NCBI GenBank assembly: GCA_964450605.1
Contig: CAYVEK010000003.1
Location: forward strand, 32,778-96,777
Origin: an uncultured Candidatus Saccharibacteria bacterium
Lineage (GTDB): Bacteria; Patescibacteriota; Minisyncoccia; Phycocordibacterales; CAIZLB01
DNA length: 64,000 bases
Direction of reading: 5' to 3'
Numbering within the stretch: position 1 is the stretch's first letter; every line of letters begins with the position of its first letter. The notes under the pieces were generated by a model that saw only the letters and a list, made by a program, of their open reading frames with translations, made no database searches and was not told the origin of the DNA. Positions 1 to 15,600 of the stretch are shown here, piece by piece. The position numbers and the translations under genes were made by a program.

Positions 1-543
1 TGCGCAATTACCCGGGTAGGTGTAATTGCCGCAATTGCCACATACTGGGCAATGACAAGCATCTCGCTCCCACCGGATATACTTATCCGGTTCTTTGAGC
101 ACTTTTGACCTTTCCCACTTGAAAAAATCTTTCAGCCGCGGCCTGTTGTTGTAACTGCCATTACAGTAGTCACATGTCTCTTGCCGAACAGGAGGAAGGG
201 TGGCTTGAGATTCGAGCTCTGAGCCTTGGATGACTCTGTACTCACCTTGGCCACTCAAGGCTGTGGCCCAATCCTCTTCTGCCGGCAATTTACCAGGCAG
301 AAGACTGACGCGTCTTTTGCCAACAGACAGAAAAAATCCGCCAGGGTCAACCACACCTGTAGCGCGGTCATATCTCACCAAACCCCACCCAGCCAACGCA
401 ACCGCCCCCCCAAACAACTTCCCCCAAAACGAGGGTTGTTTGGGAATATTTCCAAACCCCAACCTTCTGAGATCGTTCACGTCTGTAGGTTGGGGCTCAA
501 CTGCCACCATACGATCTTGAAGAAACTGCTCATACTGGATCAT
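1..543 (-). CDS. Hypothetical Cys-rich protein, partial: the start codon is the reverse complement of 541-543 and the ORF runs off the left edge.
   Basis: Manual reverse-complement translation gives a continuous ORF: MIQYEQFLQDRMVAVEPQPTDVNDLRRLGFGNIPKQPSFWGGAVALAGWGLV...ETCDYCNGSYNN...CHCPVCGNCGNYTYPGNCA. It is absent from the ORF track because its stop lies outside the window. The region is visibly GC-richer than the rest of the window. Confidence 0.4.
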   Translation of the reverse strand, partial: MIQYEQFLQDRMVAVEPQPTDVNDLRRLGFGNIPKQPSFWGKLFGGAVALAGWGLVRYDRATGVVDPGGFFLSVGKRRVSLLPGKLPAEEDWATALSGQGEYRVIQGSELESQATLPPVRQETCDYCNGSYNNRPRLKDFFKWERSKVLKEPDKYIRWERDACHCPVCGNCGNYTYPGNCA

Positions 544-650
544 ATCTTCTTTTTCTCTTATTTTCTCGACGCAGAAAAAAACGTCATATCAGGTTCTATC
601 GGATTATTTGTTGGTTAACCGATGTATTTATATACGGAACTTGAAACGTA

Positions 651-707
651 TTTGCTAAATAGCTTTAAATACACAAACTGTGTATATACTTAAGGCTATT
701 TAGCAAA
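651..707. repeat. Perfect 13-bp inverted repeat, tttgctaaatagc (651-663) / gctatttagcaaa (695-707), with a nested acaca..tgtgt palindrome in the spacer.
   Basis: Read directly from the sequence. It lies between the two minus-strand ORFs of the GC-rich island. No T-tract follows on either strand, so it is not a canonical rho-independent terminator. Confidence 0.5.
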
Positions 708-821
708 ATTTTCAATGTACTTTATACTTTCGTCCTTTTGGACTCATCAGTCAGGATACACATCCTGAGAGTATAAGGGCAGATGTTACTCTGCCCCGAG
801 GGATTTGAACCCTCTACCAGT

Positions 822-1199
822 TTAGTACTGGTGGACTTCGCGGAAGCCGCGAAAGACGAATATCGCCTCTTTTTTGACCGTACCGTCCGGCTGGGGGGTC
901 TCTTTTACCTCCCGCGGCGTCACGGACTCGATGACCGCACAACCACGGCGACGGGCCTCTGCTTTGAGAGCATCGACCAGCTGGGGCTGGCCCATTGGGT
1001 GAACAGCGTCTCCGGCGGTGAACGTCTCGCCAATATTCCTGGCTCTTTCCAGGAACCAGTCCCGGCCGAGGTCAACCTGGTCAGGGACCACGAAGGCCTT
1101 CTTGTCGGCCCATTCAACAGGCTCGTAGCCGGCCTCACGGGCGGCGTTGAGCTGATCAGCGGTGGCGGCATGAGACATGATGAAATGAAGTTTCTTCAT
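822..1199 (-). CDS. Hypothetical 125-aa protein in the GC-rich island.
   Basis: ORF MKKLHFIMSHAATADQLNAAREAGYEPVEW..., with markedly higher GC than the surrounding genome. A 152-aa ORF on the opposite strand (783-1241) overlaps it; the minus-strand reading is preferred because its sequence looks protein-like and starts MKK. Confidence 0.4.
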   Translation of the reverse strand: MKKLHFIMSHAATADQLNAAREAGYEPVEWADKKAFVVPDQVDLGRDWFLERARNIGETFTAGDAVHPMGQPQLVDALKAEARRRGCAVIESVTPREVKETPQPDGTVKKEAIFVFRGFREVHQY

Positions 1200-1305
1200 A
1201 GGGCGGGTTCCACTATCTATTCGTCAACTTATACTTTCTGAACACGATGAGCGTGATCAATCCTGCTATTTAGGACCTCTGCTGAGAAAAATATAAATCA
1301 AGTTT

Positions 1306-1361
1306 CGATTAGTGGAATATATCTATTAAATACCGCCTTAACGGACATATTCCACTAATCG
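1306..1361. promoter_or_regulatory. Perfect 15-bp inverted repeat, cgattagtggaatat (1306-1320) / atattccactaatcg (1347-1361), with a 26-bp spacer. Candidate operator in a divergent promoter region.
   Basis: Read directly from the sequence. It sits about 195 bp upstream of the TrmB-family regulator gene and about 107 bp upstream of the minus-strand ORF start at 1199. Confidence 0.45.
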
Positions 1362-1556
1362 TTTTCAAGGTTCTATGGTTGCTCTGTATACACCATGTAA
1401 CAGTTCAACATGTATGTAGTATAGCATATAGAGTATATATGTCAAGTATATACACTATATAACCCTTTATTTATAAGGATTATTTTACAATAATTTGACA
1501 ATTACCAAAATAAGCCTTAATATAAGGCTATTAGTGTTATATAACAAAAACAATAT

Positions 1557-2315
1557 ATGGATATAAAAATACTACAAAACATAGGTTTAACCGAAGAACA
1601 GGCAAAAGTGTACCTTTGTCTAATATCTTCTGGGACATTACCCGCCCGTAAGATAGCCGTAAATACAGGTATAAACCGGAGCTTGGTATACAAAATATTA
1701 AAGCAATTAATAGAGCAGGAGCTGATTACTGAAACAGAAAACAAGAGATCTGTGAGCACATTCACAGCACTCCACCCTTCAAAGTTACATCGTTTATTAA
1801 AAAAGAAAGAGGACGATTTAAAATTAGCTGATCAATCCTATGAGGAAGCGCTTAGCACTCTAACAACTCATTACAATCTAGTCTGCGGAAAACCATCTAT
1901 ACGTTTCTATGAAGGTTTAGATGGTATAAAAATGATGTATAAGGATATACTTAGAACCGGAACAAATATAGACATAATCCGATCACAACTAAATGAAAAC
2001 AGCCCTGAGTTTCAGTCATTGATACAGAGTCAAATAAAACTGCAAGCAGCCAAAGGCATACGTGTGAGAGCTATAGTTCCTCACGATTTACCTTATGATG
2101 ACAAAATTCTAGAGAATGACAGGAAGCACGGTATTGTTCGAAAACGTGTCCCCTCTGAAGACTTGAATTTACCAGCGCTTGTCATTGTATATGGAAACAA
2201 AGTATCTATGACAGCATTTGGCGACTGCATTATTACAACTGTTATTGAAGATAAAACAATCGCTGATACATACCGGATTATTTTTGAAAGATTGTGGAAG
2301 ACTGCTCAGATTTAG
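1557..2315 (+). CDS. TrmB-family transcriptional regulator.
   Basis: The N-terminus, LTEEQAKVYLCLISSGTLPARKIAVNTGINRSLVYKILKQLIEQELI, is the typical TrmB winged helix-turn-helix. The length (252 aa) and C-terminal effector-domain layout also fit. Confidence 0.75.
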   Translation: MDIKILQNIGLTEEQAKVYLCLISSGTLPARKIAVNTGINRSLVYKILKQLIEQELITETENKRSVSTFTALHPSKLHRLLKKKEDDLKLADQSYEEALSTLTTHYNLVCGKPSIRFYEGLDGIKMMYKDILRTGTNIDIIRSQLNENSPEFQSLIQSQIKLQAAKGIRVRAIVPHDLPYDDKILENDRKHGIVRKRVPSEDLNLPALVIVYGNKVSMTAFGDCIITTVIEDKTIADTYRIIFERLWKTAQI

Positions 2316-2353: not shown

Positions 2354-3169
2354 ATGCCTCGGTTAATTCAAAAAAAATTTTATACCATTAGACATTTTGA
2401 AGATGCAAACACTTTGCGTTCATCAGGGTTTGACGCCCCGCTTATAGAAAACAACCAAAAATTAATAGACTCTATACAGAAGTACTTTATAGTTGAAGTT
2501 CAGAAACAAGGTATGAAGTGTATACGACTGTACACGCCCGACAAGAAACGTACACTCCAAACGAGTAAGTTACTCAAGTGCGCATTTGAAGATAAACATA
2601 TTATGACGGACATATGTATTGATAATAGACTTGAAAATATCAACCAGGGAATACTGAAACTACCTGAAAAATATAATGATGGAGATCATTTTAGACCACT
2701 TGAGGAAGTTTGGCCAATATTTTGGCACAATACTTTTGAGAAGAAAGATCTACTATACAGGTTTGGAGTTTCTCATAAAGAAAATTTTGTGAAGCTTGGA
2801 AACACATACGCTGAAACAGTAGAAGGTTATTACAATTTTTTGATCTCCTTTTTAGAGAATATTAATTTACAAGATGACACTCTTCACATAATTATAGGAC
2901 ATTCTATTTGTCTTAATATAATCCTTGAACTTGAATACATAGCGAAAGACATGACAATAAAATCTGATTGCCTAACCATCCCCGAAGGGGACTTGCCTTT
3001 TGTTACCTCGGCGTATTTCCATAAATTAAAGTCAAAATCACTTTTACTTAAGCAAGACTTCGGAGGTATTAGATTGCATGAAGCAAGATATATGTCAAAA
3101 GAATACTTTATACAACTGCTCAAAAGAGAATCTTTGACACTAAGAAAACTTTTACTTGGACACAACTAA
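2354..3169 (+). CDS. Histidine phosphatase (phosphoglycerate mutase-like) family protein, putative.
   Basis: An N-terminal TIRHFEDAN (RH motif) and a later IIGHSICLNIILE (GHS) resemble the two signature His motifs of the family. The call is weak. Confidence 0.4.
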   Translation: MPRLIQKKFYTIRHFEDANTLRSSGFDAPLIENNQKLIDSIQKYFIVEVQKQGMKCIRLYTPDKKRTLQTSKLLKCAFEDKHIMTDICIDNRLENINQGILKLPEKYNDGDHFRPLEEVWPIFWHNTFEKKDLLYRFGVSHKENFVKLGNTYAETVEGYYNFLISFLENINLQDDTLHIIIGHSICLNIILELEYIAKDMTIKSDCLTIPEGDLPFVTSAYFHKLKSKSLLLKQDFGGIRLHEARYMSKEYFIQLLKRESLTLRKLLLGHN

Positions 3170-5509
3170 CGATTCTAATATATCTGCTACAGGTAAAACC
3201 CACCGTAGTGTAGAAACAGAACTTACATCAGCTTCCCAAACCTTCTTATGAATACGGGCAGCAACTTCTAAGGGCAGTCCTGATTCGAGCAGATATTCTC
3301 GAACAGTCTGTGGGTCCAATGCCCCTATATAAGAAGGAGAACTTTGCACACCCTCTGTCTCATCAGTTTTTTCAGTTATACCTCTTGCCAACCTGCCAAA
3401 CACATCATGAGTTCGAATGATCCACTCGGCCAATTTTAATCTCTTCTCATTACACCACTCTGGCGTTACTCTTCTTAAGAGTTTTGCACCAATTCTTTCG
3501 TGGATACCCGGAGTATTTATATTAAATAATTTTCCAAGATCGTGAGCAAACATGGCCATTCGCATAACCTGCCGAATATCTTTTGCCTCTTCAGCCATAC
3601 CATGTTCAGACAAGAAATCTATCATACTATCAGTCTCTAATAGTCTAGATGATGTTTCTTGATGATACTTTAGAGGCGATCCTAGGTGTGTAACCTTTTG
3701 CTCAGCACCCCCTTTTTCAGCTTTAGGTATAAAATCTTTTGAATCTCTTTTCTCCAGCACTTCCCTCATCTTTTCACTCTTATCGTAATCGATCAGTCCA
3801 ATCAAGTCGCGATCCTTGCCCCCTATGGGGCTTCTACTCCTTCGTTGATTCAATAACCATTCTCGATACGAATCATCATCTAACTCTTTAGAACAATAAT
3901 CAAACCAGCTATGAAAACCTTCAGGATGTGGTACAGCCACACGAGCCTGTTCAGCCAAAACAGTTTCCTCGGTAGAGATCTCTATCTCTACACCTTGCTC
4001 TTTGAGTTCCATCTTCTCTTTGGCAGACCTTATGGACTCGAGTGGTTCTGGGAGAGAGGCACGATTTGGTACCGGAGGTGCTGATGGTTCTTTTTCTGTA
4101 GTATTATAAAATCCAGCAACTTGATGCATATATCCAATCTCGGTATCAGTAATATGTTCAGAGTTCCAATGTAGGGTGGTAACCTGTGCACCACTTTCTT
4201 TTTCTGCTCGGGCAACTTCTTGAGCAATGGCTAACCAACCAGTACAAAAAGTTCCCATTTCTGGTTTTTTAAAAGGTACAGGGATATAAGGACCATACAC
4301 GTTTTCATAATATTCTTTTAATACACCGACAATCTTAAGCCCAGGATACTCTTGGGTGGTCTTACGAGCTCTTTTTACAGCTCGATCGATAAATCCCTCT
4401 TTCTTTCCATCAGGAATCTTATCAAGCAAGGATTCATCAAGGCGGATGATGCCGTTCCGCAAATCTTTTTCCACATCTGGGTTCATTAATATTTTCAATT
4501 TTCCGTTCTCAGATTTAACTCCCGCTTTTCTAAAAGTCAGAGGAAATGTTTGCATTGCCTCTTCTAAGTTCTGACTTTCAATTCCGTAAAAACTTCGAGT
4601 ATCATTCATCCTATCATCGACAGACCAGCGAGTATTTGGAGATATTTGCCGTAGTTTATTTAATACGGGTAAAATATGTTCTGCCTTGCCAACATGTACA
4701 TCCTTATCCATAGACAACATATGTGCCCCGTATATTCCATTCCAAAATGGGCGGTAGAGCAAACCGGCACCAGGCCATATATTCACATCTGTTAAACCCT
4801 CTTTCTTCAGTTCTTGTTCTGCCTGGTCAACCATCTGTAAAATATCATTTTCCCATTTCATAGATTCAAAGCTTTTACCAAAATGTTCACGTATTGCCAA
4901 AGTAATATCTTCTTTAGTTTGTAATGCATCTAGTTCTAATACCGGCAAACCGAGTGATTGCGCCTCTTGTATCGCCTCCATATCCATCGCAATAGCACGC
5001 TTAATCTTGCCGTGCATCTTAGCCTCCGTATCAGCACTAACAGGTTTACCCTTTCGTAATTCACGTATCAACTGTCTATCAAATGAAAGCTCTTCTGCCC
5101 TATCTGGCGGAAATGATAAATTCAATATTTCGACACCAATACCTCTTTCATCACAATATCTTACCAAGAAATCAAGCTGATCTTTGGACCGAGGAAATCC
5201 ATCTAGGATGGCGTATGACTGACCCTTAGCAAACTCTTGACTAGCTTTTTTCAAAAAACCTTCTTCCAAACCTTCGATGAGTTCACCTTTAGATCGAGCA
5301 GAATCTCTCTTAAGTAACACCTCTTCATCTCCGGACTCTCTTGCAAATGTTCCGACATGAAAAGATTCGGCTCCTAGCATACCTTGTAGGTGCGCAATCT
5401 GTGTAGACTTACCAGCCCCGGGCATACCCAGCACACAAACAAATCTCTTTGATCGTGTCAGATGTTCTTCTCTTGTTTCTAGCGAGTTTTCTTTCTTTAA
5501 TTTTTCCAT
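3152..5509 (-). CDS. Multidomain protein: N-terminal adenylate-kinase-like NMP kinase, an unknown central region of about 400 aa, and a C-terminal HD phosphohydrolase domain.
   Basis: P-loop GMPGAGKSTQ and an ILDGFPRSKDQLDFL lid/NMP-binding motif (compare Adk GAPGAGKGTQ / LLDGFPRT). C-terminal H..HD signature: MAMFAHDLGKLF ... IIRTHDVFGR. Confidence 0.8.
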   Translation of the reverse strand: MEKLKKENSLETREEHLTRSKRFVCVLGMPGAGKSTQIAHLQGMLGAESFHVGTFARESGDEEVLLKRDSARSKGELIEGLEEGFLKKASQEFAKGQSYAILDGFPRSKDQLDFLVRYCDERGIGVEILNLSFPPDRAEELSFDRQLIRELRKGKPVSADTEAKMHGKIKRAIAMDMEAIQEAQSLGLPVLELDALQTKEDITLAIREHFGKSFESMKWENDILQMVDQAEQELKKEGLTDVNIWPGAGLLYRPFWNGIYGAHMLSMDKDVHVGKAEHILPVLNKLRQISPNTRWSVDDRMNDTRSFYGIESQNLEEAMQTFPLTFRKAGVKSENGKLKILMNPDVEKDLRNGIIRLDESLLDKIPDGKKEGFIDRAVKRARKTTQEYPGLKIVGVLKEYYENVYGPYIPVPFKKPEMGTFCTGWLAIAQEVARAEKESGAQVTTLHWNSEHITDTEIGYMHQVAGFYNTTEKEPSAPPVPNRASLPEPLESIRSAKEKMELKEQGVEIEISTEETVLAEQARVAVPHPEGFHSWFDYCSKELDDDSYREWLLNQRRSRSPIGGKDRDLIGLIDYDKSEKMREVLEKRDSKDFIPKAEKGGAEQKVTHLGSPLKYHQETSSRLLETDSMIDFLSEHGMAEEAKDIRQVMRMAMFAHDLGKLFNINTPGIHERIGAKLLRRVTPEWCNEKRLKLAEWIIRTHDVFGRLARGITEKTDETEGVQSSPSYIGALDPQTVREYLLESGLPLEVAARIHKKVWEADVSSVSTLRWVLPVADILESLVVSK

Positions 5510-5992: not shown

Positions 5993-8140
5993 TTATTTTC
6001 GTGCGTCAACGATAGTTTTCTCTACGTTTGGTGGTACAGCTTCGTATTTAGCGAATTCCATAGTATTTGATCCTCGTCCTTCTGTCATAGATCGTAGCTG
6101 TGTTGTATAACCAAACATTTCTGATAGAGGTACCATGGCTCGAATAACTTTGTTAAGTCCTCGATCTTCCATACCCTCGATCTGACCTCGTTTAGCTGAA
6201 AGTGAACCAGTAACGTCACCCATGAACTTCTCAGGAACAACAACCTCTACTCGCATAATAGGTTCCATAATAACAGGTCGTGCTTTCTTTGCACCCTCCT
6301 GGAATGCTTGTGAAGCGGCGATCTTGTACGCAAGCTCTGATGAGTCCACATCGTGGTATGAACCGTATGTAAGCTCACAAGATACACCTGTAAGTGGAAA
6401 TCCTGCGACAATACCTCGATCCATAGCTTCTTTTACTCCTTTCTGTACAGCTGGAATAAATTCTCCTGGAATAACACCTCCTTTAATAGAATCGATAAAC
6501 TCATACCCAGCTTCTCGATGAACGTTCTTTGGAATCTTTTCACCCTCTGGCCAATCTTCAAGTGGTTTAAGGTTGATTCGTACGTGTCCATACTGTCCTT
6601 TACCTCCAGACTGCTTAACATATTTGTGTTCGATATCATTTACTGCAGCAGTAATTGTTTCTCGGTATGCTACCTGAGGTTGACCTACATTAGCCTCTAC
6701 GTTGAACTCTCGTTTCATTCGATCAATCATGATCTCAAGATGAAGCTCACCCATACCTGCGATAAGTGTCTGTCCTGTTTCTGGGTTTGATGTAACTCGG
6801 AAAGTTGGATCCTCATCCCCTAGTTTCTTAAGAGCGATACCCATTTTCTCCTGATCTGCTTTTGTCTTTGGTTCGATAGATAGAGATACCACAGGCTCAG
6901 CAAATTTGATTGATTCAAGAATGATAGGATTGTTTTCATCACAGAATGTGTGTGATGTAAGAGCTTCTTTAAGTCCTACGGCAGCAGCAATCTCTCCTGC
7001 AAATACTTTCTTAACTTCTTCTCGCTTGTTTGCCTGAAGTCGTACGATTCGTCCTAGTCGCTCTTTGTTTCCTGTTGTTGAGTTGTAAATATATGAACCA
7101 GCTTCGATAGTTCCTGAATACACTCGGAAGAATGTAAGCTGTCCTACGAATGGATCGTTCTGTAGTTTAAACGCAAGAGCTGAAAACGGCTCTGTATCAG
7201 ATGACTTTCGCTCCATCTCTTCTCCTGTATCTGGATTAACTCCTTTTATAGGTGGAACATCAAGTGGTGATGGAAGATATTCGATCACAGCATCAAGAAT
7301 AAGTTGTACTCCTTTGTTTTTCAAAGCTGTACCTGTAAATACTGGGAACAAACTGTTTGAAAGAGTTCCTTTTCGGATAGCGGCTTTAAGATCTTTGATA
7401 TCAAAATCTGTTTTTCCATCTAGATACTCGTTCATCATTTTCTCATCTTGCTCAACAGCTTTTTCAACAAGCTCTGCTCGTCGTTTTGTAGCTTCGTCTA
7501 GGAATTCAGCAGGTATCTCAGACTCAACAATCTTGTTACCCATCTCTCCTTCAAATGTATATGCTTTCATTTTTAGAAGATCAATAACTCCAGCCATCTT
7601 GTCTTCCTCTCCCATAGGGATTTGCATTCGAACAGCATTTTTACTCAATCGGTTTATGATTGATGCAAATGATCGCTCAAAAGAACCTCCTGTTCGGTCT
7701 AGTTTGTTGATGAAACAAATTCGAGGAACGTGATATTTATCAGCTTGTCGCCATACAGTTTCTGACTGAGGCTCTACTCCAGCCACTCCGTCAAATACAG
7801 TAACGGCACCGTCAAGAACTTTTAGTGATCGCTCCACCTCTACAGTAAAGTCTACGTGTCCTGGTGTATCGATAATGTTGAATCGGTGTTTATGTGATGT
7901 ATCTGCTCCCATGTATGTAGGATTCCAGAAACAAGTAATAGCAGCGGCAGTAATAGTAATACCTCGCTCTTTCTCTTGTTCCATCCAGTCAGTTACCGCT
8001 TCACCATCGTGTACCTCACCAATCTTGTGTGACATACCTGTGTAGTAAAGGATTCGTTCTGATGTTGTTGTTTTTCCGGCATCGATGTGAGCAATGATTC
8101 CAAAGTTTCGTGTTCGCTCTAGTGGATAATCTCGTTGCAT
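5993..8140 (-). CDS. fusA: Elongation factor G.
   Basis: [33 protein letters not shown] and a length of 715 aa, located downstream of rpsL-rpsG. Confidence 0.97.
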
Positions 8141-11864: not shown

Positions 11865-13185
11865 TAAAAAGTATAGATAAAAAATATAAAACAAGCACAA
11901 CAAGAACCGTGCTTGTTTTCATATATATGTATGCGTATTCAAATTGTGAAAGTTTTTTCACAACAAAGAATATAAACTCAAGCACTTTGTTGTTTATAAA
12001 AACAAACACATCTTTTAACCAACTAAGATTCACAAGACTAAAAACAATTGTTAAAAATCCAAGCAACATAACGATGGGTATAAACGGTAAGACCAAAATA
12101 TTACTCAACAAAAAAACTGTTGAAAAAGATCCAGACATGTACAACAGGTATGGAAACACAAATACTTGAGTCGATAAGGTTACAGCAATAATCTCTATCA
12201 ACCACATCGGCATAAAATGTAAAAAAGAAAATTTTATTTTTTCTGTAAAAAAGTTAGAGAATAAAATAAGTCCAAATGTAGCACAGCAAGTTAAATGAAA
12301 TGACGGATCATACAGAGTTTGAAAAGGTGCAATTGTTGTAAGTAATAAAATGGTTATAGTAAGTGCATACACCTGAGAAGTTTTTTCTGAAAATAAAAAC
12401 AAGCCACAGAACGTACTCGCCACCGCACGATATATCGGAGCTCCTCCACCAACTAACATCATAAAAAACCAGACAAACATTGCGATAAATATTTTTTGGA
12501 AAAACTTTTTTCGACGAAATATTTTATCTGTAATTGTTTTAACACAACCGAGTATCAAACTTACATTTGAGCCAGACAAAACCACAACATGACTTAAGCT
12601 CACTCGTTTAAACATATCCAGCATACTGTTTGTCATCAAACCTTTTCCAGCTATCAACACGCCCGCAACCAAACCACTGTATGGTTGTACATACTCTCTC
12701 AAGAGTATGTCTGTGAATCTTTTTTTCTGTTTCATGAAGAAAAGTTCTAGGGTTTGATAGGGACCTAAACTAGGGCAATTAATTTGTGTTTCATTTACTA
12801 TGATGGCTTGTAATATGAGAAAAACATCATCTTTTGCAAGATATTTTTGATATGGAAATGTATACAAAACATCTTTGGAATCTATATCTTTTGGCTTTGA
12901 AACACGTCCTGAAACATTGATACACTGTCCAAACGTTATTTCGGTAGTGGCCGGGGTAGTGATCTTATACCTATAGCCGGAAACTAGATCATGAGCAAAA
13001 AACTTGTACAAATACCGATCCATAACAACATCCGAATCAATAATAAGAGTACCTTTAAAAGATCCTTCTGTTGCAAGTTTTTGTTTTTGTTCAAAGCTTT
13101 TGTGAGAAAAAATAATCGCAACCAGTGAGCTTATCAATAACACAAAAAATAAAATGTATTTATATTTTGAAATTAAAAAACTCAC
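11821..13185 (-). CDS. comEC: ComEC/Rec2 DNA-uptake channel, N-terminal part (DUF4131/OB domain plus polytopic competence domain).
   Basis: At least 8 TM segments and the GLVAGVLIAGKGLMTNSMLDMFKRVSLSHVVVLSGSNVSLILG competence-domain motif. The MBL domain is encoded separately at 10271-11221. Confidence 0.8.
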   Translation of the reverse strand: MSFLISKYKYILFFVLLISSLVAIIFSHKSFEQKQKLATEGSFKGTLIIDSDVVMDRYLYKFFAHDLVSGYRYKITTPATTEITFGQCINVSGRVSKPKDIDSKDVLYTFPYQKYLAKDDVFLILQAIIVNETQINCPSLGPYQTLELFFMKQKKRFTDILLREYVQPYSGLVAGVLIAGKGLMTNSMLDMFKRVSLSHVVVLSGSNVSLILGCVKTITDKIFRRKKFFQKIFIAMFVWFFMMLVGGGAPIYRAVASTFCGLFLFSEKTSQVYALTITILLLTTIAPFQTLYDPSFHLTCCATFGLILFSNFFTEKIKFSFLHFMPMWLIEIIAVTLSTQVFVFPYLLYMSGSFSTVFLLSNILVLPFIPIVMLLGFLTIVFSLVNLSWLKDVFVFINNKVLEFIFFVVKKLSQFEYAYIYMKTSTVLVVLVLYFLSILFIIRISLQQSPSSRC

Positions 13186-13252
13186 TGACGTATTGTTGCA
13201 TATCAGTGATAAAGTTTTTTAAAAGAAAAGATAAAGAAAAATATAAAAATAT

Positions 13253-13786
13253 TTATTGTCTCCAGTTTGAGAAAACATCGTTATAAAAATATTTTTCTTC
13301 TCCATCAATAAGAGCCTCGTCATCTGCACATGTCGTTGCGATCTCATCAGCGCGAGCATTGAAGACGTTGTCGCTATGACCCTTAACATACGTCCACTTT
13401 ATGGTGTGACCGGCTTGCTGTATCTCGAGCACAAGAGCATCTAGCTTTTTCCAAAGATCTTGATTTAAAACTTCTTTTTTTGCAGAAGTTTTCCAATTAT
13501 TTTTTTTCCAACCATGTATCCATTCTGTTATACCTTGTAGTACATATTTTGAATCAGCAAAAACATGTATGTTTTTTAAACCAAAAGTATTTTCAGAATA
13601 AGCTAAAGACAGCCCATGAATAGCGCCTTCGAGTTCCATTTTATTATTTGTAGTGTATTCACTTTTACCACCAACTTCCAAAACTTTTTCTTTTCCAAAA
13701 ACAACTATGCAAGCCCATCCGCCCGGACCTGGATTTCCACGAGCTGCGCCATCGGTATATATAGTAATAGTGTCAGAAGTAAACAT
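13253..13786 (-). CDS. rnhA: Ribonuclease HI.
   Basis: IYTDGAARGNPGPGGWA, ELEGAIHGL, ADSKYV and HSDNVFNARADEIA. Confidence 0.9.
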   Translation of the reverse strand: MFTSDTITIYTDGAARGNPGPGGWACIVVFGKEKVLEVGGKSEYTTNNKMELEGAIHGLSLAYSENTFGLKNIHVFADSKYVLQGITEWIHGWKKNNWKTSAKKEVLNQDLWKKLDALVLEIQQAGHTIKWTYVKGHSDNVFNARADEIATTCADDEALIDGEEKYFYNDVFSNWRQ

Positions 13787-13795
13787 GTACCCATC

Positions 13796-15571
13796 TTACA
13801 CCTTACGCTCAAGCTTTTCTACCCGGACACGCACCTCTCGTTTTCCCAAGAAAAAGCTCTCTTCGATAAAACCATATACATCTAACACCTCCTCGACTGG
13901 GGCATTCAAAAGTGTTTCATCTGCAAAAAAGGTTATGTATCGAACAGGAGTGGTTTTGAATCTTCCTGTTGTGTATTTGTATGTGTCCTGTAAAAAATCA
14001 GGAGTTGGTTTTTTAATAACGCCTTCTGAATCTATAAAGTGTTCAATCATAAACTCAGCATGCTCTTTTTCTTTTCCAAATTTTTTAACTTCTCTCAATA
14101 CCACTCCTGCTATTTTAAACAACGGCTTTTCATTTGCTATACCAAAAGGACGAAGGTTGTTCAGATTGGATATAAAAGACTCGTTTATAGTATCGTGACT
14201 TATAGTGTAGATACAGGTTTCTTCTGATGACTGAACTTCTGCAACCTGTCCTTCAGAAGATTCTTTCCATTTTGTAAAAGCCTGTTCCAACTCAGACTCA
14301 AAGACATCAACTTTATCTTTTGTAAAAGCAAAACCTCCCGACAGAGCATGGCCTCCAAACTCTTCAAAAAAATCTTGTGTAACATGTCCCATGATATCTA
14401 CCAAACTGAAACCTGGAATAGATCGACATGAACCACGAAAAACATCTCCATCCTCGCAACCATATACGAAAACCGGCTTTTGAAACTTTCGTACCATGTT
14501 ACTCGCCACAGGACCAACCAGTGTAGGGGACCACTGTTCATCACCTACTATTAGTATGTTTTTATCATTAACAGAAACTGTATCAACCTTTTTTTCTGCT
14601 GATTTTATAAGATCTTTGGCTTTTTCTTTTCGAGACTTGTTGAGAGTAACCAGATGACGAGCTTGTTTCACTGCTTCAACAGCATTACCTCCAGATAATA
14701 GATGAAACGCATCAAGTGCATGAGACATACGAGAAGCGGCATTTATACAAGGACTTATAGAAAAACCAATATCATCTTCTTGGATATCTTTTACCTGTAA
14801 TTTTAATTCAGCCAAAAGACTTTGAAGTCCTAGACGTCGTCCTTTTTGAAGAACCTTAAGTCCATAGACTGCAAAGACACGATTCTCACCAGTCAGTGGA
14901 ACCATGTCTGATATAGTCGCCAAACCAACCATGTCCAATAACCACTTCTCCCAACCAGGAGCTATTGTATATCCTTTTGTTCGAGCTTGTGCGACCAGTC
15001 TGTGTATCAACTTATACATCACGCCGGCACCGCAAAGCATTTTTTCACCATATCGGCAATCTTCTTGTTTTGGATTTAAAATCGCATATGCTTTTGGCAA
15101 CTCACCATGTGGCATATGATGATCTGTGATAATCACATCTATACCTAAACTATTTGCATACTCAACCTCATCAACTGCTGATATACCAAGATCCATAGTT
15201 ATGATAAGTGTCACCTCCAGATCTCTAGCTTTATCTATGAGATGTTTATGTAAACCAAAACCGTCTTTATGTCTGTGAGGTATGAGCACCTCTATATGAT
15301 CGCTGTAACCTATTTTATTAAAAAAATCATATGCAATAGTGGCCGACGGAACACCGTCAGCATCATAGTCAGCATACAAACAGATCTTTTCTTTATTTTC
15401 TATCGCTTTCCAAATACGATCTGTAGCTTTATCTATATCTTTCATTCTAGATACATCAAACATCCCCCCTTTTTCTTCATCATACACAGGATTAAGAAAC
15501 TCCTCGATCTGACCCTTCGTCAAACCTCTGTCTTTCAGTATTCGCAGATGTACAGGAGTATCTTCATACAT
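13796..15571 (-). CDS. recJ: Single-stranded-DNA-specific exonuclease RecJ (DHH family).
   Basis: ADYDADGVPS, ITMDLG and IITDHH DHH/DHHA1 motifs; 591 aa. Confidence 0.9.
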   Translation of the reverse strand: MYEDTPVHLRILKDRGLTKGQIEEFLNPVYDEEKGGMFDVSRMKDIDKATDRIWKAIENKEKICLYADYDADGVPSATIAYDFFNKIGYSDHIEVLIPHRHKDGFGLHKHLIDKARDLEVTLIITMDLGISAVDEVEYANSLGIDVIITDHHMPHGELPKAYAILNPKQEDCRYGEKMLCGAGVMYKLIHRLVAQARTKGYTIAPGWEKWLLDMVGLATISDMVPLTGENRVFAVYGLKVLQKGRRLGLQSLLAELKLQVKDIQEDDIGFSISPCINAASRMSHALDAFHLLSGGNAVEAVKQARHLVTLNKSRKEKAKDLIKSAEKKVDTVSVNDKNILIVGDEQWSPTLVGPVASNMVRKFQKPVFVYGCEDGDVFRGSCRSIPGFSLVDIMGHVTQDFFEEFGGHALSGGFAFTKDKVDVFESELEQAFTKWKESSEGQVAEVQSSEETCIYTISHDTINESFISNLNNLRPFGIANEKPLFKIAGVVLREVKKFGKEKEHAEFMIEHFIDSEGVIKKPTPDFLQDTYKYTTGRFKTTPVRYITFFADETLLNAPVEEVLDVYGFIEESFFLGKREVRVRVEKLERKV

Positions 15572-15600
15572 GTCCGTATAGTAACATAAAGATCCATTTT

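What the first reader, a model, noticed from the sequence alone, without database searches (positions are those of the whole stretch)
1..1400. GC-rich island at the window edge, flanked by perfect inverted repeats, next to a TrmB-family regulator: a probable horizontally acquired segment.
Positions ~1-1240 are conspicuously GC-richer than the rest of the window. By eye, 822-1199 is roughly 55-60% GC against about 35% elsewhere. The island carries two minus-strand ORFs: a Cys-rich partial protein with CxxC...CxC...CxxC motifs, and a 125-aa unknown.

A 13-bp perfect inverted repeat with a nested palindrome (651-707) lies between them. A 15-bp perfect inverted repeat (1306-1361) lies in the AT-rich divergent promoter region shared with the TrmB regulator gene. 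TrmB regulators typically bind palindromes, so the 15-bp repeat is a plausible operator.

The compositional discontinuity suggests recent acquisition from a high-GC donor.
Basis: partly seen in the sequence, partly recalled or inferred. Interest (0 to 1): 0.55.

Follow-up and report, generated by a model that had tools for sequence, protein, structure and literature searches.

The report
Ribozyme-punctuated variable gene array

Summary
The composition claim is real. Positions 1-500 and 820-1200 are the only part of the 64 kb window at or above 50% GC. Third-codon GC is 0.44-0.70 there, against 0.28±0.03 in host genes.

The island is not a simple recent insertion bounded by inverted repeats. 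The contig extension shows a 3.3 kb array of five same-strand genes. In more than 20 related CPR loci, a TrmBL2-like regulator gene faces such an array divergently.

The first array gene is a ring-nuclease type. It is Csx20-like here (the "125-aa unknown") and Csx3 in the syntenic relative. Downstream genes are mosaic and mostly orphans.

Window 722-776 (minus strand) holds a complete type III hammerhead ribozyme, with cleavage predicted between 769 and 768. Related hammerheads occur 26 times in these arrays and never in about 270 kb of flanking or control sequence.

The 15-bp repeat (1306-1361) is the base of a covarying, G·U-tolerant hairpin in a conserved leader RNA downstream of the promoter. 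It is probably not a TrmB operator. The 651-707 repeat is the long hairpin that often follows these ribozymes.

The best reading is a ribozyme-processed, polycistronic accessory-gene array, possibly involved in defence or counter-defence. GC-richness persists across deep divergence and is unexplained.

The parts
1..543 (-). ORF2, the second array gene. It is a Cys-rich orphan protein, with 181 of its 187 codons inside the window. GC3 is 0.51.
   Evidence: Translation. The complete gene is L001 10657-11220. It matched only itself among 5.8e9 proteins. No Pfam, PADLOC or NCBIfam hit. GC3.
651..707 (-). Long imperfect hairpin (about 24 pairs) 15 nt downstream of the hammerhead, in the 5' UTR of ORF2.
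   Evidence: The 281-nt spacer folds with z = -7.1. A hairpin of at least 20 pairs lies within 110 nt after 8 of 17 related hammerheads, against a shuffled mean of 7-10 pairs.
722..776 (-). Type III hammerhead ribozyme.
- Stem III: 771-776 paired with 722-727.
- U16.1 at 770, C17 at 769.
- Predicted cleavage between 769 and 768.
- Stem I: 751-768.
- Core CUGAUGA: 744-750.
- Stem II: GUCC-AAAA-GGAC.
- Then GAAA.
   Evidence: Rfam RF00008 scores 45.0 bits, E 3e-8, over the full model. The minimum-energy and centroid fold of the 61-mer is the canonical three-way junction. In 8 locus homologues, 13 of 17 pairs show compensatory change and 92.6% of cells are paired. It is the only hit in the 64 kb window with model R1.
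777..814 (-). Two short 3'-UTR hairpins after the Csx20-like stop codon. The first is a T-loop-like hairpin, GAGGG-UUCAAAU-CCCUC (798-814). The second is GGGGCAG-AGUAACAU-CUGCCC (777-797). After cleavage they would form the 3' end of the upstream RNA.
   Evidence: It is not a tRNA (ARAGORN and Rfam). Similar T-loop-like hairpins follow ORF2 and ORF3 in L001.
822..1199 (-). First array gene: a 125-aa Csx20/MJ1673-like protein with a minimal CARF fold, a probable cyclic-oligoadenylate ring nuclease. GC3 is 0.70.
   Evidence: PADLOC Csx20 E 2.5e-6 over the full length. NCBIfam CAS_Csx20 E 6.7e-7, below the cutoff. Precomputed PF27247. AlphaFold2 pLDDT 88. The top Foldseek hits are the CARF ring nucleases Sso2081 and Sis0455, and Csa3. 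Csx20 is shown to cleave cA4 in bioRxiv 10.1101/2024.09.24.614671.
1224..1361 (-). Conserved structured 5' leader RNA.
   Evidence: Twelve copies in ten loci (11 distinct sequences). There are 39 pairs, 95.4% paired, 18 with compensatory changes, and many G·U pairs on the sense strand. The fold has z = -5.5. No Rfam family matches.
1418..1445 (-). Predicted sigma-70 promoter of the array: TTGACA, 16-nt spacer, TG-n-TATACT, matching 11 of 12 consensus positions.
   Evidence: Equivalent TTGACA promoters with 17-nt spacers were read by eye in L005, L006, L007, L008 and L033.
1426..1460 (.). A 14-nt inverted repeat (93% complementary) centred on the -35 hexamer of the array promoter. This is a candidate operator.
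   Evidence: It is AT-rich, so chance is not excluded. Conservation in other loci was not established.
1495..1529 (+). Predicted promoter of the regulator gene (TTGACA, 17-nt spacer, TAATAT). The palindrome AGCCTTAATATAAGGCT (1513-1529) overlaps its -10 element.
1557..2315 (+). TrmBL2-like regulator: a TrmB-type winged helix, a long helix and a PLD-like C-terminal domain. It has host-like composition (GC3 0.32) and is the conserved divergent partner of the array.
   Evidence: Pfam PF01978 scores 46.4 bits against a cutoff of 25.6. Orthologues lie next to arrays (A2). AlphaFold2 pLDDT 90. The best Foldseek match is TrmBL2 over the full length, E 1e-14, and the C-terminal domain resembles NucT/PLD.

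Best explanation
Window 1-1445 (minus strand) is the promoter-proximal part of a hypervariable array of accessory genes with foreign composition. In CPR/Patescibacteria, such an array occupies a fixed position facing a TrmBL2-like regulator gene.

Proposed mechanism:
1. A near-consensus promoter (1445->1418) drives one long transcript.
2. The transcript starts with a conserved structured leader (1224-1361). It then encodes a Csx20-like ring nuclease, which probably degrades cyclic tetra-adenylate, followed by orphan genes.
3. Forty-five nucleotides after the first stop codon, a type III hammerhead ribozyme cuts the RNA between 769 and 768.
4. The upstream message then ends in two hairpins with a 2',3'-cyclic phosphate. 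The downstream message starts with a 5'-OH, the folded ribozyme and a 24-pair hairpin (651-707). Each cistron can therefore have its own stability and translation.
5. Genes are exchanged as cassettes at the structured spacers. The regulator presumably controls the promoter.

Shown here: the composition, the ribozyme fold with its covariation, the synteny, the cassette mosaicism, and the leader structure.

Inferred: co-transcription, cleavage in vivo, end protection, ring-nuclease activity, regulation by the TrmB-like protein, and a defence or counter-defence role.
For: Composition.

Array extent: five same-strand ORFs between TrmB and a convergent bPH_2 gene.

Hammerhead:
- Full core and fold with covariation.
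- Model R1 finds 26 locus hits, about 18 of them non-redundant. All are co-oriented and intergenic by inspection, within the arrays.
- None occurs in about 77 kb upstream of the arrays, the other 63 kb of the window, 78 kb of distant Csx20 loci, or about 50 kb of non-array flanks in the TrmB-anchored loci L032-L037.
- A hammerhead directly follows the first gene in L001, L008, the second copy in L006, and L034/L035.

Synteny:
- The TrmB-like gene lies next to the array in 9 of the 20 loci. The other 11 either have little upstream DNA (contig ends) or, as in L018/L024, have about 8 kb upstream without it.
- Closer TrmB orthologues are paired with Csx3-led arrays. One of these sits at the same S20/EF-G chromosomal site.

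Cassettes:
- Gene families are mosaic between loci.
- L006 and L016 differ by a 910-nt cassette bounded by TCTCCACT after a hairpin.
- Junction modules are 78-97% identical between unrelated ORFs.
- L033 keeps the D1 module, ORF4 and ORF5 but replaces the proximal genes.

Leader.

Gene content: Csx20-like, Csx3, SAVED, DEAH helicase, a weak viperin-like radical-SAM hit, and NDK; the rest are orphans.

Literature:
- Clustered bacterial hammerheads flank single genes of varying identity and cleave polycistronic RNA in vitro (PMC3088659).
- Csx20 is a cA4 ring nuclease.
- csx20 homologues occur in regulator-controlled anti-defence operons.
Against: - There are no expression or cleavage data.
- The hammerhead scores 3.5 bits below Rfam's gathering threshold.
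- The Csx20 assignment is remote: NCBIfam gives 29.7 bits against a cutoff of 70, and Foldseek gives E 3e-3 with TM about 0.5.
- No type III CRISPR, CBASS cyclase or CRISPR array was seen nearby, so the source of any cyclic oligoadenylate is unknown.
- Only one of the four spacers in this genome has a hammerhead. The others carry a different structured module (D1).
- Long hairpins follow only about half of the related hammerheads.
- Nothing explains why the arrays stay GC-rich.
- Binding of the regulator to any site is untested.
- In L018/L024 no TrmB-like gene lies upstream of the array, and in L014/L015 the Csx20-like gene is not the first gene.
Confidence: 0.6

Rival explanations
1. First reader's model. 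The segment is a single, recently acquired island from a high-GC donor, delimited by inverted repeats. The 15-bp repeat acts as the TrmB operator in a shared divergent promoter.
For: The composition is foreign. ORF2 has no homologues. The repeats are real and lie in or near the divergent intergenic region.
Against: - The locus is syntenic across CPR classes, with the same GC step at the same gene boundary.
- Distal genes are shared with a relative at 66% amino-acid identity and are still GC-rich.
- No high-GC donor was found.
- The two repeats are unrelated hairpins and do not bound the island.
- The 15-bp repeat is downstream of the promoter, and shows G·U pairs, compensatory changes and variable loop length.
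Confidence: 0.08
2. The array is the anti-defence or cargo region of an integrated mobile element, such as a prophage, satellite or integrative plasmid remnant. The TrmB-like protein would act like an Aca repressor of an acr-type operon.
For: - Bacterial hammerheads are typically prophage-associated and flank ardA in Agrobacterium (PMC3088659).
- csx20 homologues occur in Aca-regulated anti-defence operons.
- The array has small variable orphan genes behind a strong promoter with an adjacent HTH regulator.
- A palindrome lies over the -35 element.
Against: - No integrase, transposase, replication or structural genes occur in any array.
- No flanking direct repeats or tRNA target were found.
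- No relative occurs in 2.9 million IMG/VR viral contigs.
- The regulator has host composition and many vertical-looking orthologues.
- The locus lies at the same housekeeping site (S20/EF-G) in a genome with 59% TrmB identity.
Confidence: 0.15
3. The array is an integron-like gene-capture platform. The hairpin modules would be recombination sites, folded as single-stranded DNA, at which promoterless cassettes are inserted and excised. The RNA structures and the ribozyme would be secondary.
For: - Cassettes are same-orientation and mostly promoterless behind one promoter.
- A precise 910-nt cassette indel lies between 8-bp direct repeats (TCTCCACT) abutting hairpins.
- The motif 'hairpin + C[CT]AC..ATTGAG' recurs at cassette ends in six loci.
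- The leader module is duplicated inside arrays.
- In L001, 97-nt D1 repeats flank ORF3.
Against: - No tyrosine or serine recombinase, or any other recombinase, occurs in or beside any array. The one integrase seen, in L036, is 5 kb away on the other side of the regulator.
- There is no attC-type R/L box or GTTRRRY core (read from the sequence).
- G·U-rich covariation is strand-specific, which argues for RNA.
- The indel could equally be a deletion by microhomology or homologous exchange between conserved spacers.
Confidence: 0.12
4. The GC-rich segment is an assembly chimera, joined to an AT-rich CPR contig.
For: There is a sharp compositional step, and the finding lies at the window edge.
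Against: The same junction is present in three independent contigs, including a 142 kb NCBI record. The same regulator/array junction recurs in more than 20 independent assemblies. The leader upstream of the step is conserved together with the gene downstream of it.
Confidence: 0.02

Closest known systems
Clustered type III hammerhead ribozymes flanking variable genes in bacterial prophage-like regions (Perreault et al. 2011, PMC3088659; Rfam RF00008)
   Same: The catalytic core and three-helix fold are the same. The ribozymes lie between co-oriented genes of non-constant identity. There are several per locus in relatives. The expected role is cutting polycistronic RNA into gene-length pieces.
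   Different: The hosts are CPR bacteria, for which no hammerhead report was found in the library searched. The locus has a fixed chromosomal anchor, a TrmBL2-like regulator, and no phage genes or integrase. The first gene is always of a ring-nuclease type in the loci where it could be typed. The arrays are strongly GC-rich in AT-rich genomes. Two further conserved RNA modules share the spacers.
Csx20 (and Csx3/Crn3) CRISPR-associated cA4 ring nucleases
   Same: The protein is a small stand-alone CARF-like fold. It gives full-length profile matches to Csx20 models. A Csx3 gene fills the same position in syntenic relatives.
   Different: It is far below NCBIfam's Csx20 cutoff. It belongs to a small CPR-specific subfamily (20 clusters at E<=1e-10 among 1.84e9 representatives). 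It is not next to any cas10 or CRISPR locus. Activity is untested.
acr-aca anti-defence operons (Aca HTH/RHH-regulated; csx20 homologues reported in them, bioRxiv 10.64898/2026.07.27.740549)
   Same: There is an HTH regulator beside a strongly promoted string of small, fast-changing orphan genes that includes a ring nuclease. A palindrome lies at the promoter.
   Different: The regulator is divergent, large (252 aa, TrmBL2-like) and host-like in composition. The locus is chromosomal and syntenic, not on a recognisable mobile element. No known Acr family was detected.
Integron cassette arrays
   Same: Cassettes are in one orientation behind a common promoter. Hairpin-forming spacer elements sit at the cassette boundaries. 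One cassette-sized indel lies at a short conserved core.
   Different: There is no IntI-type integrase and no attI/attC sequence signature. The spacers behave as RNA structures and include a ribozyme.
TrmBL2 (archaeal TrmB-family chromatin protein and repressor, PDB 5BOX)
   Same: The predicted fold matches over the full length: winged helix, coiled helix and PLD-like domain. The sugar-binding domain is absent.
   Different: It is bacterial (CPR), only about 13% identical, and is paired with a specific divergent array. Its DNA target is unknown.

Membership tests
Hammerhead ribozyme, type III (RF00008) | Invariant core: CUGAUGA, GAAA, the A15.1-U16.1 pair and a non-G residue at position 17 | tested here: met
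   All are present at 722-776 (-), with C17 at 769.
Hammerhead ribozyme, type III (RF00008) | Three helices around the core, with stems I and II closed by loops and stem III open | tested here: met
   The Rfam alignment covers the full model. The minimum-energy and centroid fold is the canonical junction. In 8 homologues, 13 of 17 pairs covary.
Hammerhead ribozyme, type III (RF00008) | Score at or above Rfam's gathering threshold (48.5 bits) | tested here: not met
   The score is 45.0 bits, E 3.2e-8. It is absent from the gathering-threshold scan.
Hammerhead ribozyme, type III (RF00008) | Site-specific self-cleavage giving 2',3'-cyclic phosphate and 5'-OH ends | not testable with these tools
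   This needs in vitro transcription or end-specific RNA-seq.
Csx20 ring nuclease (NF040559 / PF27247 MJ1673) | Profile match above the curated cutoff | tested here: inconclusive
   NCBIfam gives 29.7 bits against a cutoff of 70. PADLOC Csx20 gives E 2.5e-6 over the full length. A precomputed PF27247 hit is on record.
Csx20 ring nuclease (NF040559 / PF27247 MJ1673) | CARF-like Rossmann fold resembling Crn1 (Sso2081) | tested here: met
   The AlphaFold2 model has pLDDT 88. The top Foldseek hits are Sso2081, Sis0455 and Csa3, with probability 0.98-1.0, E 3e-3 and TM 0.44-0.52.
Csx20 ring nuclease (NF040559 / PF27247 MJ1673) | Location in or beside a type III CRISPR-cas locus | tested here: not met
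   There are no cas genes among the called genes of L001 and its relatives. No CRISPR-like array occurs in the window.
Csx20 ring nuclease (NF040559 / PF27247 MJ1673) | Degradation of cyclic tetra-adenylate | not testable with these tools
   This has been shown only for a canonical Csx20.
TrmB family regulator | N-terminal TrmB-type winged helix (PF01978) above the cutoff | tested here: met
   The score is 46.4 bits against a cutoff of 25.6.
TrmB family regulator | C-terminal sugar-binding effector domain of TrmB/TrmBL1 | tested here: not met
   NCBIfam TrmB equivalogs score 16-23 bits against cutoffs of 500-650. The fold matches TrmBL2, which lacks that domain (my knowledge of TrmBL2). The C-terminal domain resembles PLD/NucT.
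TrmB family regulator | Binding to a palindromic operator at the regulated promoter | tested here: inconclusive
   The candidates are 1426-1460 and 1513-1529. The 1306-1361 repeat behaves as an RNA hairpin. No binding data exist.
Integron | Adjacent IntI tyrosine recombinase | tested here: not met
   None occurs in or next to any array.
Integron | attC sites with R''/L''-L'/R' boxes and a GTTRRRY core | tested here: not met
   The spacer hairpins lack these boxes when the sequences are read. The recurring core is C[CT]AC..ATTGAG.
Integron | Same-orientation cassettes behind one promoter, with cassette-sized indels at the sites | tested here: met
   (a single clear indel).
Classical genomic island or prophage | Integrase, flanking direct repeats and a tRNA target | tested here: not met
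   There is no tRNA at the borders, no border repeats, no integrase, and no IMG/VR relatives.

The most novel reading that the evidence does not exclude
CPR bacteria may carry a previously undescribed cassette-exchange platform, a functional analogue of an integron without an integrase. In this reading, the structured spacers (hammerhead, leader motif, D1 motif, hairpin + CCAC..ATTGAG) serve both as RNA-processing signals and as the joints at which genes are swapped. Ribozyme-excised RNA intermediates might be involved. The platform would hold a pool of ring nucleases, SAVED proteins and orphan genes, kept GC-rich by selection, for interference with cyclic-oligonucleotide immune signalling. 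The D1 and leader motifs could include new self-cleaving or ligand-sensing RNA classes.
Probability: 0.12. Interest if true: 0.9.

Novelty: new variant of a known kind. Interest (0 to 1): 0.62.

Why it matters
What clustered hammerhead ribozymes do in bacteria has been open since 2011; a 2019 review calls their roles 'largely elusive' (PMC6765202). This locus family offers a defined and comparable system:
- a fixed anchor gene (a TrmBL2-like regulator) and a strong promoter;
- a first gene of a ring-nuclease type, which is recognisable and can be assayed;
- ribozymes at cassette joints;
- natural variants in which one ribozyme position is filled by another conserved RNA module.

It links self-cleaving RNAs to cyclic-oligonucleotide signalling genes. 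It places them in CPR bacteria, for which the library searched held no hammerhead report. It also exposes two candidate new structured RNA motifs.

Array genes keep a GC3 of 0.6-0.8 inside genomes with a GC3 of 0.3, across deep divergence. This compositional puzzle argues against the usual reading that a GC anomaly means recent transfer.

Tried and rejected
- **tRNA gene or tRNA-derived attachment site at 785-847.** The T-arm-like hairpin looked like a tRNA 3' half. ARAGORN and Rfam find no tRNA there. Only a 16-bit mascRNA-like match appears, at E 6. The 5' acceptor strand is absent, and the upstream 'arms' lie in conserved coding sequence. Rejected.
- **Known Rfam family for the leader or the D1 module.** None was found at E<=1 over L001 9000-15000, or at E<=10 over L001 11215-12640.
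- **Phage origin.** There are no relatives of the Csx20-like protein or of the D1 core in IMG/VR.
- **Recombinases in the arrays.** Pfam and PADLOC scans of about 35 array proteins found none.
- **DNA-level relatives of ORF2, ORF3 or the spacers.** Among the 30 loci held at that point, only the leader, the first gene and the hammerhead match. The D1 and ORF4/5 relatives appeared only in TrmB-anchored loci fetched later.
- **The TTTGTAGATAG motif as a genome-wide signal.** It is not enriched in the window.
- **A Cas12a-repeat-like reading of 'GTAGAT'.** Rejected by inspection, because there is no matching 5' stem.
- **Donor search.** Profile searches of 1.84e9 and 5.8e9 proteins, and of GTDB genomes, gave only CPR relatives plus distant Csx20 proteins.
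- **Conserved operator around the -35 element in other loci.** None could be recognised by eye.
- **Papers by Weinberg et al. 2015 and Roth et al. 2014.** These were not held in the library.
Full report
**1. Observation**

The window averages 37.0% GC (sd 3.8% for 400-nt windows). The only 400-nt windows at or above 50% start at 1-151 and 651-951, with a peak of 59.5%. At codon level, 33 host ORFs of at least 250 aa have GC3 of 0.28±0.03 (maximum 0.34). The island ORFs have 0.70, 0.51, 0.44, 0.54 and 0.57, and the TrmB-like gene has 0.32.

They are the two longest of 14 local inverted repeats in the window. The repeats are unrelated to each other and do not bound the island. One lies between ORF1 and ORF2, and the other lies in the AT-rich leader.

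**2.

The minus strand of 722-776 is a complete type III hammerhead ribozyme.
- Rfam RF00008 gives 45.0 bits and E 3e-8 over the full model, 3.5 bits under the gathering score.
- Every invariant core residue is present, and C17 is at 769, so cleavage is predicted between 769 and 768.
- The 61-mer folds into the canonical junction as both its minimum-energy and centroid structure.
- It is preceded by two short hairpins, one of them T-loop-like (777-814). ARAGORN and Rfam show this is not a tRNA.
- It is followed after 15 nt by the 651-707 hairpin.
- The whole 281-nt spacer is unusually structured, with z = -7.1.

**3. Extension of the contig**

The exact 125-aa protein occurs on three contigs. 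One of them was fetched as L001, where window position = 11200 - L001 position. The GC-rich stretch runs over L001 9990-13340, about 3.3 kb. It contains five same-strand ORFs (125, 187, 203, 93 and about 65 aa) between the TrmB-like gene and a convergent bPH_2 gene. Ribosomal-protein, EF-G, enolase and RuvB genes lie around it. It is therefore chromosomal, and most of it lies outside the window.

**4. The genes**

- **ORF1** matches Csx20 profiles over its full length: PADLOC E 2.5e-6, NCBIfam E 6.7e-7 (below cutoff), and precomputed PF27247 MJ1673. An AlphaFold2 model (pLDDT 88) is closest to the CARF ring nucleases Sso2081 and Sis0455, and to Csa3. Csx20 is an experimentally shown cA4 ring nuclease (bioRxiv 10.1101/2024.09.24.614671). 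The subfamily is small, with 20 clusters at E<=1e-10 among 1.84e9 representatives.
- **ORF2**, the Cys-rich protein, matched only itself among 5.8e9 proteins.
- **ORF3 and ORF4** have no family hits.
- **The regulator** has a TrmB winged helix. Its model (pLDDT 90) matches TrmBL2 over the full length at E 1e-14, with a PLD-like C-terminal domain. TrmBL2 lacks a sugar-binding domain (my knowledge).

**5. Relatives**

Homologues of ORF1 (51-58% identity) were found in Taylorbacteria and Saccharibacteria MAGs, in an unclassified bacterial MAG, and in lake, groundwater and other metagenome contigs.

A TrmB-like orthologue lies divergently next to the array in 9 of the 20 loci, at 29-40% identity over the full length. 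Most of the others end close to the array. The exception is L018/L024, which has about 8 kb upstream without a TrmB-like gene.

GC jumps at the first start codon in the four loci profiled: 36->60, 38->59, 39->52-59 and 30->63%. A 2.7 to more than 8 kb GC-rich stretch follows.

Closer TrmB orthologues (48-77% identity) face arrays that begin with Csx3, the Crn3 ring-nuclease family, instead:
- L032/L033 lies at the same S20/EF-G site as the window (Csx3 E 4e-18).
- L034/L035 has Csx3 at E 4e-20, followed by a hammerhead and then a 498-aa GC-rich ORF.
- L036 carries SAVED and a radical-SAM gene with weak similarity to viperin.

Array genes have GC3 of 0.59-0.80, while their TrmB and other neighbours have 0.27-0.40. 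One exception is the L007 TrmB at 0.66.

**6. Ribozyme association**

Eight hammerheads from these loci align with 92.6% of cells paired, and 13 of 17 pairs show compensatory change. A model built from them (R1) finds 26 hits in loci, about 18 of them non-redundant, plus the window copy.

All hits lie within the arrays and, by inspection, are co-oriented with and between the ORFs. None lies in about 77 kb upstream of the arrays, the other 63 kb of the window, 78 kb of distant Csx20 loci, or about 50 kb of non-array flanks in L032-L037. A hammerhead directly follows the first gene in L001, L008, the second copy in L006, and L034/L035.

This matches, and extends to CPR bacteria, the earlier observation that bacterial hammerheads cluster around single genes of varying identity and cut polycistronic RNA in vitro (PMC3088659). 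Their role is still called elusive (PMC6765202). No paper in the library links hammerheads to CPR bacteria or to defence loci.

**7. The repeats reinterpreted**

A near-consensus promoter (TTGACA, 16-nt spacer, TG-n-TATACT; 1445->1418, minus strand) puts the 15-bp repeat at about +50 to +105 of the transcript.

The repeat is the base of hairpin P1 of a 140-190-nt leader module. The module occurs 12 times in ten loci and twice within three of them, also ahead of other genes. Its 39 pairs are 95.4% paired, and 18 have compensatory changes. Several positions alternate G·U with A-U or G-C, and the P1 loop length varies.

This is strand-specific RNA behaviour, not that of a fixed-spacing protein operator. 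Better operator candidates are a 14-nt repeat centred on the -35 element (1426-1460) and a palindrome over the -10 element of the regulator's own promoter (1513-1529). Both are untested.

The 651-707 hairpin belongs to a recurrent pattern. A hairpin of at least 20 pairs lies within 110 nt after 8 of 17 related hammerheads.

**8. Cassettes**

Gene families downstream of the first gene are mosaic. SAVED occurs in six loci, a DEAH/HA2 helicase in four, and others in two to four. Of 25 representative array proteins scanned together against Pfam, only an NDK matched. SAVED, helicase, CSD and DUF3800 hits came from separate scans, and the rest are orphans.
- L006 and L016 (92-98% identical) differ by a 910-nt unit: hammerhead, leader, a 179-aa ORF and a terminal hairpin. 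It is bounded by TCTCCACT.
- The motif 'hairpin + C[CT]AC..ATTGAG' recurs at gene ends in six loci.
- L015 and L017 share hammerhead-containing junctions at 78-97% identity between unrelated ORFs.
- L033 keeps homologues of ORF4 (66% identity) and ORF5, plus a 65-nt stretch of the D1 spacer module at 97% identity. TrmB is only 59% identical between these genomes. Csx3 there replaces Csx20, the hammerhead, ORF2 and ORF3.

No recombinase was found in any array.

**9. Interpretation**

The best-supported model is a polycistronic accessory-gene array at a fixed chromosomal site. It would be controlled by the divergent TrmBL2-like regulator and cut by the hammerhead into units with protected ends. 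Its gene content points to cyclic-oligonucleotide signalling, as defence or counter-defence; csx20 homologues occur in anti-defence operons.

Cleavage, co-transcription, enzyme activity and regulation are inferred. Prophage, integron-like and chimera readings are weighed in the rivals section.

Unexplained points are why the arrays stay GC-rich, how cassettes move, and what the leader and D1 RNAs do.

Noticed in passing
L001 11231-11331 and 12111-12211 (just beyond the window's left edge); also L033 656-751(-), L017 775-868, L013 1216-1308, L015 1813-1893, L019 4887-4967, L036 4772-4850(-): The 'D1' inter-cassette module is a conserved RNA motif of four hairpins. One hairpin has a GAAA tetraloop, and the last has a variable stem between the invariant flanks UUAUCAA and UUGUAGrUA. 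It has 31 pairs, 13 with compensatory changes, and no Rfam match. It occupies the same position as the hammerhead in other spacers and often precedes SAVED genes. It is a candidate new structured RNA or ribozyme.
   Followed up: partly
L006 about 7100-7800 and L007 about 3625-4380 (between the array promoter and the leader module): An extra non-coding stretch of about 600 nt shares blocks between two genomes, for example GTGGATAAGCCAT and GGTAA(A)GAGGAGAGAGTGAG. It may be a large leader RNA. It is absent from the window's locus.
   Followed up: no
L002 9821-9889(-) = L006 11821-11889(-): A DUF3800-IX RNA (RF02968, 43.1 bits, above the gathering score) lies beside a DUF3800 gene inside a related array. 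DUF3800 RNAs are orphan motifs of unknown function.
   Followed up: no
L006 about 15100-15600(-) and the minus-strand genes at 12500-15200; the same in L016: A second Csx20-like gene with its own hammerhead heads a convergent array, so two arrays face each other. Two of its hammerheads have a 27-nt insertion in stem II.
   Followed up: partly
L007 7795-7835, L013 2055-2095, L015 3370-3410 and 7225-7265, L017 1615-1655 and 4195-4235: A hairpin just upstream of several hammerheads has a loop (for example UGCAGAUU) complementary to the 5' strand of ribozyme stem III (UCUGCA). This could be an alternative pairing that gates cleavage.
   Followed up: no
window 1426-1460 and 1513-1529: A 14-nt inverted repeat is centred on the -35 element of the array promoter, and a 7+3+7 palindrome lies over the -10 element of the regulator's promoter. 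Both are plausible operator sites, but they are AT-rich and their conservation is unproven.
   Followed up: partly
window 2354-5509: A 271-aa orphan gene and a 785-aa protein (adenylate-kinase-like P-loop, nucleotidyltransferase and HD domains) lie between the regulator and rpsT. In the syntenic relative L032 the regulator abuts rpsT directly, so these two genes are an insertion or are lineage-specific.
   Followed up: no
L001 12211-12531: A 320-nt AT-rich, ORF-less gap lies between the second D1 copy and a truncated third copy. It is possibly a decayed or emptied cassette slot.
   Followed up: no
All arrays (e.g. L008 8001-10750, L034 4500-6750, L033 1-1400): Array genes keep a GC3 of 0.59-0.80 in genomes with a GC3 of about 0.3, even for cassettes shared by genomes whose TrmB is only 59% identical. 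This suggests a maintained compositional bias with no explanation yet.
   Followed up: partly
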